Positions 11,097 to 24,194 of a DNA stretch of 29,638 nt are shown here, piece after piece. The notes under the pieces are model-generated. The model was not told the origin of the DNA. It did no database searches and was given only the letters and a program-made list of their open reading frames with translations. Within the stretch, counting starts at the first letter, position 1, and each line of letters opens with the position of its first letter. Made by a program: the position numbers and the translations under genes. Source of the stretch: an uncultured Candidatus Peribacteria bacterium (GTDB taxonomy: Bacteria; Patescibacteriota; Gracilibacteria; Absconditabacterales; Absconditicoccaceae); NCBI GenBank assembly GCA_964620295.1, contig CAZUIS010000001.1, positions 1 to 29,638 of the forward strand, read 5' to 3'.

Positions 11097-14000
11097 TTAT
11101 TTCATAAGACGTGTTTTTGTAGTAACCATAACTATTTCTTTGCCCAAAAAATCTTTTATAACATAAACAACTGAACGAGTATTAGTATCATAGCGATATT
11201 CTCCTATCAGTGAAGTCGATGATATTTTTGGAATATAAAGTTGTCATTGAGAAGAAATATATAAAACACACTCTTTATCCAAAGATTGAATACAGTATCA
11301 TCACAAAAAAGCACCAAAAGTTGATTGAGTAAGATCTACTTTGGAATAAAATGGCTCTTTTTGATATAGCGTAAGATTTACCAAGCTATAAGAAGGCATT
11401 TGTATCCAAAAGACTGTTGATCATAATTGTTTATGAAGCACACGAACAAGAGGAGCTCCAGTAGACAGATCTAACTGAATATCATAAAGATCTGCGTATC
11501 TATCAAAAATATTTATATTTCAGTCTATAGATATTTGTCATATCTGAACTCACTTTGTATCATAAAGTCCAACCGTATTTCATAAGCTAAAAACAGATCA
11601 AGTAACAATTGTCTGTTTCGGTCCAATTGAAAAACCTCAATAAGCATTAGCCAATGTTCATGACATTTCTTGCCAAGAATCATTTCTTTGTCTTTGGAAA
11701 ATGACCATTCATTCATCTATATCTTGAGACATTTCTGCAACCAATTGTCAAGAATATTCTGATAACGGAACAAAATCTTTCACCGTAATTGATGGAACAT
11801 CTATATCTAATGAAACTTTTTCAACCTGCCTATTTCCATTAAAATCTTCTGCTCACATCAGATATTCCAAAGTTGTTTTGCCCGTAAAATATAATCAAGA
11901 AAGCAATACAATACCTGTTTGAGCAGTACCAGAAACATTAGCCAATTCTTTCGTAGAATCATTTATCCACATACGAGAAACAGCTACATTATCTGACCAA
12001 CGAGCAACCAGATTATAATATGTTCAAACAAATCATTTATGACGAGATCATGTACTTATTGTTTGATTTATTGAAGGTCTTTCCAATGTAATAACAGCTT
12101 CTGGTCAAATCATATCCGCAAGAATTTGTCTTCCTGCAACTATTTGATTTGATCGTGGTCCATGAGGAACATAGAAAGGTCTTTCCGGTGTTTGGATATT
12201 TTTTAATGGAACAATTTCCGCATACTGCCAATTTCTAGGAATTTCACCAAGCCCAATAGATACTATTTGTTGTGTTGGTTGATAAAATTTCATCGTTAAA
12301 ATAAGTCCAGAATATTGTCCTCCCGAAAGAAAATCTGACACATTTCTTGGCTTATCAGCATCCTTTCCTTTGTAATAATATCTTTCTTTAAAATCTATAG
12401 TTGCAGAAGTATACTGTGTATTTGTAGGTAAAACAAGAATATATCTTTTATTCAAAAATTTATCATCCAAAAAACGAAAATTAATATCTTTATCATGATA
12501 TGTATCTATTCTATGATTAAGCTTAATTAAATATCAATCAACAGATTCTCACAAAGAAGTAAGATTAGTCCAAGACATTTTTATAGCATCAAAAGACTGT
12601 CATGCCATCTTAAAGTTTTTAACTTCTTGTGTCGAAGAAACCAACTTAACAGATACATTACCAAACTCAACATATCAATTTGCATCAGCAACATCAAAGA
12701 GTGAACCATAAGAATCTATATATGAAGAAGCAAATAGTTTTGGAGAATATACATAAAATGATTTTGTTGTTTGTGTGTTTTGATAGACAGATTTTTGATT
12801 TGCATATTTAACATAAACCGTATTTGTGTCCCACAAAAGAAGATCTTTTTTTGTGTCTTGATTAAGATCAGCCTCAAAATAATTATCAGAAACCGCACTT
12901 ACATATTTTTCTGATTTAACAACGTTAACCTTATTTCAAGAACTATTCTCTACAAAAACTCAACGAACATAAGAAGAAATATCTGAAGCAAAATCAGAAG
13001 TTACTGCAGTTGACGAAACCGAATTTGTATTTGCTTGCGCAAGCAAGGGTTGTTGTGTCAGATCTTTTTCATCGGAAAGATATGGAACTCCACAAGTCAT
13101 ATACGAAACCGAATCAAATCACAAAGTTTCATAAACAGAGTCTATTTTAGACTTCATAGTCTGTAAATAGTTAGTAGTTTTCTCATAGTCAACTTTTGTC
13201 ATACTAAGTTCATCTGGAGATGATGAAGTAAGTGTTGTCAAATATCCATTAACCAAAGAAGCATTGGTGTCCATATACGTTTTTAAAGGAGATTCTTGTT
13301 GTTCCAAAAAGGCATAGGTCTCATCTGTTGTAGTAAACAAAGGAACATCAAAAGAGGCTTCAATATGATCATCACTAACCAAAGCAACATCATTCTTTTT
13401 CACATTTGCAACAAACATATCATAAGATTTTATTGACTTAGCTAATTCACGAACTTCTTTTTGTTTTTTCAATAAAATATTCTGAATTTCTTTTTCAGCA
13501 TTTTGAATTTCTGAAACGGCTGGATTGATAACAATAGGAGTTTGTAATACAGAAGTTATTTTTTTGATTTCTTTTTGGATATCTTGATCTTCAACACGAT
13601 CACTAAATTCTTTTAGTCACAAAGAAAGTTGTTTATATGCTACATCATAGTCTATAGTTTCAACAGTTGTCGACAAAGGCGTTATAGAAAAATCCAAAGG
13701 AGGAACAGTAAAGTCCATATCCAAATCTTTTATATCTTTATTGAGAAAATCAACAACTGCATTATTTTGTAATCATGAATTAACAGCAGAAAGTCCTTTT
13801 GCATAAGAAGAAGTAACTTTATACGTAACACCATTAACCGTTTCTGCTATTTGATTAAGGAATCAATAAAACGGAGAGAAATCCATAGTAAACTGCAAGA
13901 ATCAATCAATTTGGAAATCAAATCATTGTGGCTTTTTATCTGTTTGCCAAGTAAATGTTTGATCAAAAAAGTCGAAAATAGGAACATCCCAAGTCCTTTG

Positions 14001-23000: not shown

Positions 23001-24194
23001 TTTATTAATAATTGGTAATGTCATATACCAACGATTGGATTCAATTTTATCATCCAAAGATTTTTCCAAAAGATCATTAAAAGAAACGATAACAGGAGAA
23101 ATTCACTTAGAAGGATCTCAAACAGCCAAAGAATCTTTTAAAAGAAGTTTATGAATATGCGAATCTATTCAATCGACCCAGTCACCACTTCCCGTTTTTT
23201 TATACCATCTTGCAGCAGCTTGGGCATTATCTTTCATAGTTGCAAGAAAAACTCAAGGATATAATTTATCATACTTTGCAAGAAGTTCCTTAATAACCGA
23301 CAAAAGCATTGTTGTAGGAACCTTCGATTCTGATAAATTGTCAAAAGCAGTTTTTCATGCACTAATAGTAGCTTGCAATTCTGGATTATTGGAAGATGTC
23401 TGAGAAAAAGAAGAAAGCAAATCAGACATATTATCATTCTGAACTGTCTTGAAATAATCAAGCATCAAATTAGTAAACCTATGATATCCTACATCTTCAG
23501 TAAAAAGGAAATTGTTAACATAAAAAGGCAACGTATCTTGAGAAAAAGTATTTTTAACTCCAATAAAATCATCATACCACATCAAAGGAGCAACAAAAGA
23601 TGTTGGATTTTTTGTATACGTTCTTAGCTTTTGAAAGAAATTATGATAAAGAGATACATCTGATCAGAAATTAAGAATTCAATGCCAAATTTCAGCTTGT
23701 CATCTAGGATTATTATTATAAACAAAAAATTGTTGATTTGCGTCATAAACAAATTGTTGATCCTCAAAATCTACATAAGGAAAAATGGTTGGATAAATAA
23801 ATCATTTATTTTGTACAACAGGCAAAGGAATATCTCACACAAAAATTGCTCACAAAAGATCTGAAGACGTTCATTTAACCCCATCAAAATACATATTTTC
23901 CAGCATTTTGACAAGATCTATTGCCTTAAAATTTTTTACATTAATAGGAAGAATTAAAGCTTTAGAATTAGAAACACGTTGTTGAATATAAGAGGTTGCA
24001 TACCACTCTACATCAGTTTTTGTATCTTGATAAATATCTTTATCAACAAACACAGCTACAAGATGAGTTCTTTCCAAAGGATTCTCTGCAAAAACAGATC
24101 AAAGATCGACAAAAAACCAACTCTGTAAAAAGTAGGATAAAGAATATATAAGCAACAAAAGTCAAACGAGATGCCTTTTATGCAAAAAATACAT
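11097..24194 (-). CDS. Giant multidomain secreted/surface protein (~4365 aa): C25-like N-terminus, Ig-like repeats, FG-GAP/VCBS repeats, DUF11-like, Cys/Pro-rich regions
   Basis: Thirteen minus-strand track ORFs (12105 to 24077) share one frame and each ends in TGA. A manual line-by-line scan found no in-frame TAA/TAG between ATG 24194 and TAA 11097-11099; the upstream stop is at 24216-24218. Signal-like N-terminus ends in SVFA-EN. Confidence 0.85.
17725..18105 (-). repeat. Three FG-GAP/VCBS-type Ca-binding repeats within the giant protein
   Basis: DINNDGLIDILIV (~18061-18102), DVDNNRYPDILVW (~17913-17955), DMDKDGNIDIVT (~17725-17765): DxDxDGxxD(I/L)(L/V) pattern. Confidence 0.75.

What the first reader, a model, noticed from the sequence alone, without database searches (positions are those of the whole stretch)
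11097..24194. Hidden 13.1-kb ORF encoding a ~4365-aa modular surface protein
Standard-code calling breaks this into about 13 short ORFs. Architecture read N to C: signal peptide; C25-like alpha/beta region; helical region with Cys pairs; Ig-like beta-sandwich repeats with D-x-x-GN motifs (KDFSGN, TDAWGN; ~18900-20060); three FG-GAP/VCBS repeats; DUF11-like segment (~16950-17260); Cys/Gly/Pro-rich module; Pro-rich stalk; coiled coil; C-terminal Ig-like part (EDFNGNR). No C-terminal TM helix or LPxTG was seen, so anchoring is unexplained. Absconditabacteria are epibionts or predators, so a role in host attachment is a reasonable inference.
Basis: partly seen in the sequence, partly recalled or inferred. 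Interest (0 to 1): 0.85.

Follow-up and report, generated by a model that had tools for sequence, protein, structure and literature searches.

The report
Giant conserved surface protein gene
This 13.1-kb stretch is one real gene for a 485-kDa exported protein of a tiny, recoded (Absconditabacteria-type) bacterium, and it belongs to a large uncharacterised family of giant cell-surface proteins kept throughout its bacterial class, so the family is already in the databases and its role in touching host cells is only inferred.

Summary
With TGA read as glycine, 11097-24194 (minus strand) is one uninterrupted 4365-codon frame with 155 in-frame TGA. Under the standard code the longest piece is 134 aa. 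Codon-level alignment to two orthologues supports TGA=Gly and CGA/CGG=Trp, which changes 7 residues. An independent assembly holds a 96%-identical 4365-aa copy. Two bioreactor metagenomes tile the gene at even depth with no indels, and 23 of 32 strain differences are synonymous.

About 38 full-length relatives (3900-5140 aa) were found, and 684 clusters in a 1.84-billion-protein library. The core occurs in 276 of 401 genomes of the class and in none of about 376 other genomes of the phylum.

- N-terminal hydrophobic export segment.
- Gingipain-like but cysteine-free N-terminal fold.
- Ig-like repeats, three Ca-type FG-GAP repeats and a DUF11-like segment.
- An invariant-Cys module and helical regions.
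- No LPxTG or SLH.

The "Pro-rich stalk" is among the most conserved parts, so it is not a plain linker. Distant relatives carry C-terminal SLH wall anchors that this lineage lacks. A VirB2-like pilin gene and four genes for proteins with N-terminal signal or anchor segments stay next to it.

Function remains inferred. NCBI already lists relatives as "VCBS repeat-containing protein", and this scan has met the family on at least eight other genomes.

The parts
11097..24194 (-). Whole gene: 4365 codons plus TAA stop. Protein P0218 (TGA=Gly, CGA=Trp), 485.5 kDa.
24087..24194 (-). aa 1-36: basic N-terminus, hydrophobic segment (aa 9-27) and a possible VFA/EN cleavage site. Sec signal peptide or signal-anchor; the two were not distinguished.
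   Evidence: Hydropathy scan, where it is the only clear TM-like segment. Cleavage is inferred.
23595..24071 (-). aa 42-200: alpha/beta domain with the fold of the non-catalytic N-terminal subdomain of gingipain/PorU (peptidase C25). There is no Cys in aa 1-414. It is conserved across the whole family.
   Evidence: AF2 pLDDT >93. VIA Z 8.5 to RgpB and PorU, 7.9 to Kgp residues 240-374. AFDB 'Gingipain domain' clusters E 1e-7 to 1e-4. Block map. Cys positions.
22275..23594 (-). aa 201-640: helical region with two beta-hairpins that follows the C25-like domain. Moderately conserved.
   Evidence: AF2 model m672989cd47ea; conservation
20205..21164 (-). aa 1011-1330: conserved block of unknown fold (TxDRPID, YPNLY, GYEVAYINSDG motifs), found in many distant relatives.
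   Evidence: no PDB relative
19215..20009 (-). aa 1396-1660: Ig-like beta-sandwich repeats (KDFSGN at 1405, TDAWGN at 1631).
   Evidence: Aligns with Invasin_D3/Big_1/Glyco_hydro2_C5 hits of relatives P0095 and P0177. Motifs.
17505..18344 (-). aa 1951-2230: FG-GAP/VCBS beta-propeller region with three Ca-type loops (DINNDGLID 2032, DVDNNRYPD 2082, DMDKDGNID 2145).
   Evidence: Pfam PF13517 E 1.5e-7, above cut-off. Motifs. Among the most conserved blocks.
16932..17222 (-). aa 2325-2421: DUF11-like segment.
   Evidence: Only by alignment to the DUF11 hit of P0095, which is E 3.7e-4 and below Pfam's cut-off.
15945..16517 (-). aa 2560-2750: Cys/Gly/Pro-rich module with seven invariant Cys and a locally hydrophobic stretch (GIAICFGPYPLGVAVPPLV). 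Family-wide core, fold unknown.
   Evidence: AF2 gave no confident model. No PDB or Atlas relative.
14559..15347 (-). aa 2950-3212: helical bundle ending in a helix of about 85 residues.
   Evidence: AF2 pLDDT 80-90. Only generic coiled-coil matches, Z at most 7.1.
13965..14510 (-). aa 3229-3410: CxxC...C cluster, then about 120 residues with invariant Pro positions, then the KIFCILK...EQMTQRTW motif. This is the most conserved segment of the family.
   Evidence: It is the part found in distant relatives. AF2 confidence is low.
13035..13814 (-). aa 3461-3720: probably helical or coiled region, seen only in the closer (mostly TGA-recoded) relatives.
   Evidence: Block map. Coiled-coil Pfam noise in relatives. 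No model was made.
11100..13034 (-). aa 3721-4365: beta-rich C-terminal region with an FG-GAP-like loop (DLNQDTKKDLLLWD) and an Ig-like part (EDFNGN at 4117). The gene ends where distant relatives continue into SLH and TSP3 repeats.
   Evidence: (language-model lead only, score 0.88)
10245..11075 (-). Downstream gene g276: 276 aa, N-terminal signal/anchor segment, 8 Cys. Kept next to the giant gene in relatives.
9763..10221 (-). Downstream gene g152: signal peptide plus two hydrophobic helices, a VirB2-like (T4SS_pilin) topology. Kept next to the giant gene.
   Evidence: Pfam PF18895 E 0.033 here. A precomputed 'weak' hit in the orthologue of L003/L004. Topology. Synteny.
4276..9766 (+). Convergent genes g306, g485, g384 and g664, each with an N-terminal signal/anchor segment and 4-9 Cys. 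g485, g384 and g664 are syntenic with the giant gene in both relatives examined; g306 in one.

Best explanation
A single, intact, expressed-type gene encodes a 4365-aa (485 kDa) Sec-exported envelope protein. It is the Absconditabacteria version of a giant protein family that is kept across its whole GTDB class. In GTDB terms, from my own knowledge, that class covers the Absconditabacteria, Gracilibacteria and Peregrinibacteria lineages.

Shown here: the reading frame, the code, purifying selection, family membership, a collinear conserved core, and a conserved set of neighbouring genes for proteins with N-terminal signal/anchor segments. The core runs from the gingipain-like N-terminal domain through the FG-GAP propeller, the invariant-Cys module and a helical bundle to the CxxC plus invariant-Pro module.

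Inferred: the protein leaves the cell through Sec, using its N-terminal hydrophobic segment, and folds outside the cell with disulfides and bound Ca2+. It then forms a long multi-domain surface structure whose Ig-like and FG-GAP parts bind a ligand on another cell or surface. It probably acts together with the co-conserved neighbours g276, g152 (VirB2-like), g664, g384 and g485.

Its N-terminal domain is a non-catalytic scaffold, not a protease. Unlike its standard-code relatives, it is not tied to the wall by SLH modules, so how it is retained is open.
For: - Frame and code. In the codon alignment TGA pairs with GGN 156 times and TGA 89 times, never with TGG. TGG pairs with CGR 30 times and with other Arg codons only twice.
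- Integrity and selection.
- Family: 38 full-length relatives. 684 clusters, 310 of them at E<=1e-30. 276 of 401 class genomes, 159 of 229 genera. In the phylum sample only 12 of 401 genomes matched and all were of the class, so none of about 376 outside it matched.
- Collinear core blocks in relatives of 3500-6000 aa.
- Export: a single N-terminal hydrophobic segment. 29 Cys, many of them invariant.
- Extracellular domain types: FG-GAP_3 over its cut-off. Ig-like, DUF11 and SLH domains in relatives.
- N-terminal fold.
- Synteny of partners at 42% and 34% identity of the giant protein.
- Published inference for giant surface proteins of this clade: PMC8080830, PMC13059738.
Against: - There is no direct evidence of expression, localisation or binding for this protein or any family member.
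- No anchor was found: no SLH, no LPxTG, no C-terminal TM helix.
- The two most conserved modules have no recognisable fold or relative, so the core activity may be something other than adhesion.
- Conservation across a whole class, at one copy per genome, is unusual for a host-specific adhesin.
- The signal-peptide call rests on a hydropathy scan only.
Confidence: 0.6

Rival explanations
1. Structural envelope protein. The giant protein is a housekeeping scaffold of the cell wall or surface layer of this class (coat, spacer or wall organiser), not a host-recognition adhesin.
For: Near-universal, apparently single-copy presence: 61 of 64 genomes of the same family and 159 of 229 genera of the class. 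Strong conservation of the non-adhesin core modules. SLH wall anchors in 6 of 11 sampled members. Purifying selection.
Against: It was not found in any sampled genome of three families of the class (0/64, 0/12, 0/8), so it is not needed for the envelope as such. FG-GAP and Ig-like domains are typical ligand binders. The regions between core blocks are variable.
Confidence: 0.2
2. Part of a pilus- or T4SS-like conduit. The giant protein, the VirB2-like pilin g152 and the neighbouring signal-bearing proteins would form one envelope-spanning apparatus for exchange with the host. The hydrophobic Cys-stabilised module would touch the host membrane.
For: g152 has a signal peptide and two hydrophobic helices, with a weak T4SS_pilin match. 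The cluster is conserved. In standard-code relatives the giant gene is followed by four co-directional conserved genes. A VirB4-like gene exists elsewhere in the genome. VirB2-like pilins are widespread in Patescibacteria (PMC12102498).
Against: The pilin match is below Pfam's cut-off here (E 0.033). VirB4 lies on another contig. No T4SS component was recognised in the cluster. The link between the partner sets of the two lineages is only a 40-residue motif at hhalign probability 46-75%. There is no structural support for membrane insertion.
Confidence: 0.12
3. Active cysteine peptidase. The C25-like N-terminal domain would make this a giant surface protease or a self-processing protein.
For: The best structural matches of aa 42-200 are RgpB, PorU and Kgp (Z 7.9-8.5) and AFDB 'Gingipain domain' clusters.
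Against: The match to Kgp covers residues 240-374, which from my own knowledge of the Kgp structure is the non-catalytic N-terminal subdomain. No Cys occurs in aa 1-414. No conserved Cys or His-Gly/Cys pair is present in the family alignment of this domain. Pfam Peptidase_C25 does not match even at E<=1. Z 8.5 is at the level the tool calls common for unrelated folds.
Confidence: 0.03
4. Artefact. The long frame would be a misassembly, a chimera of several genes or a decaying pseudogene.
For: It comes from a metagenome-assembled contig. Some pipelines call only 38-260-aa fragments of relatives.
Against: Full-length collinear orthologues exist in dozens of independent assemblies. Contigs of two independent runs show no indels. 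The 23:9 ratio of synonymous to non-synonymous strain differences argues against decay. There is no TAA or TAG in 13.1 kb of 31% GC DNA.
Confidence: 0.01

Closest known systems
Unnamed family of giant (3500-6000 aa) proteins of Absconditabacteria, Gracilibacteria and Peregrinibacteria, listed by NCBI as 'VCBS repeat-containing protein' (MDD3263232.1, MEI6426255.1, MCX6825442.1)
   Same: Full-length collinear homology at 25-96% identity. Same order of core blocks. Same neighbouring genes in the closer members.
   Different: Nothing essential; this is one more member. It belongs to the sub-group that lacks the C-terminal SLH/TSP3 tail and is doubly recoded (TGA=Gly, CGA/CGG=Trp).
Giant membrane or surface proteins reported for Candidatus Vampirococcus lugosii (ten longest 1392-4163 aa; VAMP_16_20, 4163 aa, 'hypothetical protein'; PMC8080830) and for Strigamonas methylophilicida (PMC13059738)
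   Same: Same clade and same size class. Integrin/FG-GAP and DUF11 domains. Predicted surface location. The same proposed role in host recognition and attachment.
   Different: Orthology to VAMP_16_20 could not be checked because its sequence is not held here. Those papers give no family definition, core modules or gene neighbourhood.
SLH-anchored surface proteins of monoderm bacteria
   Same: Distant members of the same family carry SLH domains near the C-terminus (PF00395 in 6 of 11 sampled members, best E 2.9e-27).
   Different: This protein has no SLH match at E<=1. It ends about 75 aa after the last segment it shares with the SLH-bearing relatives. The genome has SLH matches elsewhere, on contigs C19, C45 and C93.
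Peptidase C25 (gingipains RgpB/Kgp, PorU)
   Same: The fold of aa 42-200 resembles their N-terminal alpha/beta subdomain.
   Different: No catalytic Cys/His pair, no Pfam C25 match and 12-17% identity. It is a resemblance of fold, not membership.
Integrin-alpha-type FG-GAP/VCBS beta-propeller adhesins
   Same: FG-GAP_3 match over Pfam's cut-off and three DxDxDG-type Ca loops.
   Different: The propeller is about 6% of the protein. The rest is not integrin-like.

Membership tests
Giant surface-protein family of the Absconditabacteria/Gracilibacteria/Peregrinibacteria class (unnamed) | End-to-end homology to other members of 3500-6000 aa | tested here: met
   38 full-length hits, E=0, covering 99-100% of the query in the closest 11. 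Alignment A1.
Giant surface-protein family of the Absconditabacteria/Gracilibacteria/Peregrinibacteria class (unnamed) | Collinear core: N-terminal alpha/beta domain, FG-GAP, invariant-Cys module, CxxC plus invariant-Pro module | tested here: met
   Block-HMM map over about 100 giant proteins. Profile hits.
Giant surface-protein family of the Absconditabacteria/Gracilibacteria/Peregrinibacteria class (unnamed) | Adjacent genes for small proteins with N-terminal signal/anchor segments | tested here: met
   g276, g152, g664, g384 and g485 are syntenic in L002 and L003. Their homology to the four partners of standard-code relatives is inconclusive.
Peptidase C25 (gingipain) | Catalytic Cys and His in a caspase-like subdomain | tested here: not met
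   No Cys in aa 1-414. No conserved Cys in alignment A3.
Peptidase C25 (gingipain) | Match to the Pfam Peptidase_C25 profile | tested here: not met
   No hit at E<=1. A PDB profile search with A3 found nothing at E<=10.
Peptidase C25 (gingipain) | Fold similarity to the gingipain catalytic domain | tested here: inconclusive
   Z 8.5, 8.5 and 7.9 to RgpB, PorU and Kgp, covering mainly the N-terminal subdomain. AFDB gingipain clusters at E 1e-7. PDB Foldseek E>=0.09.
FG-GAP / VCBS repeat proteins | Pfam FG-GAP_3 over the gathering score | tested here: met
   32.3 bits against a cut-off of 26.9, two stretches, aa 2032-2093.
FG-GAP / VCBS repeat proteins | Ca-binding DxDxDGxxD loops | tested here: met
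   Three loops at aa 2032, 2082 and 2145. D2032, D2040, D2082, D2090, D2149 and D2153 are invariant.
SLH-anchored wall proteins | One to three SLH modules | tested here: not met
   No SLH hit in P0001 at E<=1. SLH is present in distant family members.
Sortase (LPxTG) substrates | C-terminal LPxTG, hydrophobic stretch and basic tail | tested here: not met
   No LP.[TSA]G anywhere. No C-terminal hydrophobic segment. A sortase gene does exist on contig C24.
DUF11 (PF01345) | Pfam match | tested here: inconclusive
   No hit in P0001 itself. Relative P0095 has a sub-threshold hit (21.2 bits against 24.6) that aligns to aa 2325-2421.
Sec-exported protein | N-terminal signal peptide or signal-anchor | tested here: inconclusive
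   Hydrophobic segment aa 9-27 after a basic N-terminus. No dedicated signal-peptide predictor was available.

The most novel reading that the evidence does not exclude
The three modules that define the family match nothing known: the invariant-Cys hydrophobic module, the helical bundle with its 85-residue helix, and the CxxC plus invariant-Pro module. They may be the working core of an undescribed, class-specific envelope machine, built together with the VirB2-like pilin and the neighbouring signal-bearing proteins. Through it these ultrasmall bacteria would dock onto, and perhaps breach, the host envelope. On this reading the protein is more than a passive adhesin.
Probability: 0.15. Interest if true: 0.85.

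Novelty: new member of a known kind. Interest (0 to 1): 0.45.

Why it matters
Bacteria of this class have genomes of about 1 Mb, yet most of those sampled spend 1.3-1.7% of the genome on this one gene and keep it collinear across lineages that use different genetic codes. That marks it as central to their biology. Cultured relatives (Vampirococcus, Absconditicoccus) are epibiotic predators, and how they hold and exploit prey is unknown.

The report adds five points:
- A family definition based on core modules.
- Evidence that the N-terminal domain is a protease-like fold without the catalytic residues.
- The loss of the SLH anchor in this lineage.
- The constant companion genes.
- A warning that standard-code or table-4 gene calling shreds or mistranslates the family in public databases.

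It does not reveal the function.

Tried and rejected
- Pfam and NCBIfam on the whole protein gave only FG-GAP_3.
- Profile searches of the PDB with four regional alignments (A2, A3, A5, A6) found nothing significant.
- AlphaFold2 of aa 2540-3460 with 35 sequences gave mean pLDDT 49.9. Only the helical bundle was confident, and the Cys-rich and Pro-rich modules stayed unresolved. A structure search with that model returned only generic coiled coils, Z at most 7.1.
- Foldseek of the N-terminal model against the PDB gave nothing at E<0.09.
- ESM Atlas feature searches gave no usable hit for aa 3120-3460, EndoU at a noise-level 0.80 for the Cys module, and an FG-GAP lead at 0.88 for the C-terminus.
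- I tried to tie the partner genes here to the four-gene set of standard-code relatives. phmmer found nothing. An HMM of 15 g664 homologues found nothing in five such genomes. hhalign found only a 40-residue shared motif, probability 46-75%.
- The Absconditicoccus praedator paper is not held in the library.
- Orthology with VAMP_16_20 could not be tested.
- The hot-spring run X3 holds 92% of the sampled words, yet its contigs laid only as short fragments. This is unexplained.
- Rejected readings: an active C25 protease (no nucleophile), a misassembly, and a flexible Pro-rich linker.
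Full report
**1. The observation**

Read with NCBI table 25, the minus strand of 11097..24194 is one ORF of 4365 codons from ATG to TAA. It has 155 in-frame TGA and no TAA or TAG. With table 11 only four pieces in this stretch reach 100 aa, and the longest is 134 aa. The gene is therefore invisible to standard-code callers.

The window is a complete 29.6-kb contig of a 944-kb assembly in 114 contigs, 91% complete, about 31% GC. The gene is 1.39% of that assembly.

**2. 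The code**

I aligned codons of this gene with two orthologues whose DNA I fetched: L002 (42% identity) and L003 (34% identity).
- TGA pairs with GGN 156 times and with TGA 89 times, never with TGG.
- TGG pairs with TGG 56 times, with CGA/CGG 30 times, and with other Arg codons only twice.
- CGA/CGG pairs with CGR 8 times, TGG 7 times, and other Arg codons 0 times.

This supports TGA=Gly and CGA/CGG=Trp. The latter was predicted for Absconditabacteria by Shulgina and Eddy (PMC8629427). Seven residues of the protein change from R to W, at aa 550, 1336, 1362, 2225, 2454, 2635 and 4014. The corrected protein P0218 is 485.5 kDa with pI 5.1.

**3. Is it real?**

- A 96%-identical protein of exactly 4365 aa exists in another assembly (P0002).
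- Contigs of two bioreactor metagenomes from different studies tile the gene at even word depth of 6-9, with no insertions or deletions.
- Of the 32 substitutions those contigs show inside the gene, 23 are synonymous and 9 are not. The non-synonymous changes are mostly conservative and lie in poorly conserved parts. One synonymous change is TGA to GGA at aa 1625.

This is purifying selection on the proposed frame and code.

**4. The family**

A word-indexed search found 38 full-length relatives of 3900-5140 aa at 25-96% identity. Those that carry a name are 'VCBS repeat-containing protein' of Candidatus Absconditabacteria or candidate division SR1.

Many database copies were translated with TGA=W. 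Some clusters also hold 38-260-aa members, which are probably fragments from standard-code calling.

A profile of aa 2540-3460 gave these results:
- 684 clusters at 50% identity in a library of 1.84 billion proteins, 310 of them at E<=1e-30 and most 3500-6000 aa long.
- Matches in 276 of 401 genomes of the GTDB class, which is 159 of 229 genera and 61 of 64 genomes in the window's own family.
- Many distant hits lie in open frames of 4000-5900 aa without any TGA, so they come from standard-code lineages.
- Three families of the class had no hit (0/64, 0/12, 0/8).
- In a sample of 401 genomes of the phylum, the 12 matching genomes were all of this class. None of about 376 genomes outside it matched.

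**5. Architecture**

Block HMMs cut from the full alignment show a collinear core across about 100 giant relatives: aa 41-240, 1951-2230, 2541-2760, 2761-3010 and 3131-3460. Block 1011-1330 is also found in many of them. Most of aa 241-1950 and 3461-4000 is confined to the closer, mostly TGA-recoded relatives. From the N-terminus:

- **(a) Export segment.** The only clear TM-like hydrophobic segment is aa 9-27, after a basic start.
- **(b) aa 42-200.** AlphaFold2 with 100 sequences gives pLDDT above 93 here.
  - The best solved-structure matches are RgpB (Z 8.5, rmsd 2.2 over 125 residues), PorU (Z 8.5) and Kgp residues 240-374 (Z 7.9).
  - AlphaFold DB clusters named 'Gingipain domain-containing protein' match at E 1.4e-7 to 1.6e-4.
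  - PDB Foldseek alone was not significant.
  - From my own knowledge of the Kgp structure, the matched part is the non-catalytic N-terminal subdomain.
  - There is no Cys in aa 1-414 and no conserved Cys in the family alignment. This is a C25-like fold without the protease machinery.
- **(c) aa 201-640** is helical with two beta-hairpins.
- **(d) aa 1396-1660** aligns with Invasin_D3, Big_1 and Glyco_hydro2_C5 Ig-like hits of distant members. It carries KDFSGN and TDAWGN.
- **(e) aa 1951-2230** holds FG-GAP_3 above Pfam's cut-off, with three Ca-type loops whose Asp residues are invariant.
- **(f) aa 2325-2421** aligns with a sub-threshold DUF11 hit of a relative.
- **(g) aa 2560-2750** is the Cys/Gly/Pro-rich module, with seven invariant Cys and a locally hydrophobic stretch.
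- **(h) aa 2950-3212** is a confidently predicted helical bundle that ends in a helix of about 85 residues. It gives only generic coiled-coil matches.
- **(i) aa 3229-3410** has a CxxC...C cluster, about 120 residues with invariant Pro positions, and a KIFC...EQxTQRTW motif. Together with the FG-GAP region this is the most conserved part of the protein (column conservation 0.68-0.75). It is also the part that finds the distant relatives. It is therefore not a free Pro-rich linker.
- **(j) aa 3461-3720** is probably helical.
- **(k) aa 3721-4365** is beta-rich, with an FG-GAP-like loop and EDFNGN. A language-model search points to FG-GAP proteins at score 0.88, which is a lead only.

**6. Anchoring**

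There is no LPxTG, no C-terminal hydrophobic segment and no SLH. The genome does encode a sortase, SLH matches on contigs C19, C45 and C93, and a VirB4-like gene elsewhere.

In 6 of 11 sampled family members, SLH domains (best E 2.9e-27) followed by TSP3 repeats sit near the C-terminus. About 130-185 residues around aa 4105-4290 of the query align to those relatives upstream of their SLH, which is shown for P0095. The query ends about 75 residues later.

So this lineage lacks the wall-binding tail of its relatives. How it is retained is open. It could use an uncleaved N-terminal anchor, its partner proteins, or another wall-binding part.

**7. Neighbourhood**

Directly downstream on the same strand are g276 (signal/anchor segment, 8 Cys) and g152. 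g152 has a signal peptide plus two hydrophobic helices, with Pfam T4SS_pilin at E 0.033 here and a 'weak' precomputed hit in an orthologue.

Convergent to them are g664, g384, g485 and g306, each with an N-terminal hydrophobic segment and 4-9 Cys.
- g276, g152, g664, g384 and g485 sit beside the giant gene in L002 and L003, although the outer flanks differ.
- In four standard-code genomes the giant gene is followed by four co-directional genes that are conserved among themselves, then uvrA.
- The only link I could find between the two partner sets is a 40-residue motif shared by g664 and the third partner, hhalign probability 46-75%. An HMM search was negative.

**8. What is known**

Moreira et al. 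(PMC8080830) reported that the ten longest proteins of Vampirococcus lugosii (1392-4163 aa) are predicted membrane proteins. Most carry interaction or adhesion domains, among them integrin and DUF11 domains, and they were proposed to mediate host recognition. The longest, VAMP_16_20 (4163 aa), is listed as a hypothetical protein.

The same point is made for Strigamonas (PMC13059738). VCBS proteins of Gracilibacteria were detected in a metaproteome (PMC11452946); I could not check whether they belong to this family.

Earlier notes of this scan describe the same family on at least eight other genomes. They cover the SLH anchors and the five-gene cassette of standard-code relatives. My searches were run before reading those notes and reached the same picture.

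**9. Verdict**

The ORF, its coordinates, the code and most of the domain reading are confirmed. The gene is a new member of a known, named-by-default but uncharacterised family.

The best-supported mechanism is an exported, disulfide- and Ca-stabilised giant surface structure that binds another cell or surface together with co-conserved exported partners. Only export-type features, domain types, conservation and synteny are shown. Binding, localisation and partnership are inferred.

The class-wide conservation of two modules without any known relative keeps open a more interesting reading, that of an undescribed host-contact machine. I put its probability at about 0.15.

Noticed in passing
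window 380-29311 (all genes): Trp codon choice follows the strand. The plus-strand genes use CGA (10 in gene 5162-6619, 5 in 7772-9766, 5 in 4276-5196) and have only 0-3 TGG each. The minus-strand giant gene has 51 TGG and 7 CGA, and secA has 10 TGG and 1 CGA. This matches the strong A-over-T skew of the plus strand over most of the window, with a milder C-over-G skew.
   Followed up: partly
window 9763-10221 (-): The 152-aa protein has a signal peptide and two C-terminal hydrophobic helices, with a weak T4SS_pilin (VirB2-like) match. It is conserved directly after the giant gene and g276 in relatives.
   Followed up: partly
window 4276-9766 (+) and 10245-11075 (-): Five genes encode proteins with N-terminal signal/anchor segments, 4-9 Cys and no Pfam family. 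g276, g664, g384 and g485 stay next to the giant gene at 34-42% identity of the giant protein; g306 was seen in one relative only.
   Followed up: partly
L006-L009 (standard-code genomes G321, G208, G190, G101): The giant gene is followed by four co-directional conserved genes (about 200, 230-350, 610 and 360-400 aa) without Pfam matches, then uvrA. The third gene shares a 40-residue motif (LF.NG..D.S.[YF]DL..D..NI...LF) with g664 of this window.
   Followed up: partly
window 19320-19322 (aa 1625 of the giant gene): Strain polymorphism TGA<->GGA in a public bioreactor run. It is synonymous only if TGA is Gly.
   Followed up: yes
protein clusters of P0005 and P0020: The 90%-identity clusters of full-length relatives also hold JGI/IMG members of 38-260 aa called 'hypothetical protein', probably the same gene shredded by standard-code calling. 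ENA and Logan copies are translated with TGA=W.
   Followed up: no
window 25697-26227 (+): A 176-aa protein with a lipoprotein-type start (MKKFIVGVIMAGSILLVGCGK) and a weak Anth_Ig match (E 0.0014) lies between rarA and secA.
   Followed up: no
window 13000-22999 versus run X3: A hot-spring metagenome holds 92% of the sampled 31-mers of the gene, yet its contigs laid only as 24-34-base fragments. This is unexplained and may come from the filter or from fragmentation.
   Followed up: no
window 15664-16383 (+) and 22473-23018 (+): Antisense open frames of 239 and 181 aa under table 25 lie inside the giant gene. I took them as shadow ORFs and did not examine them.
   Followed up: no
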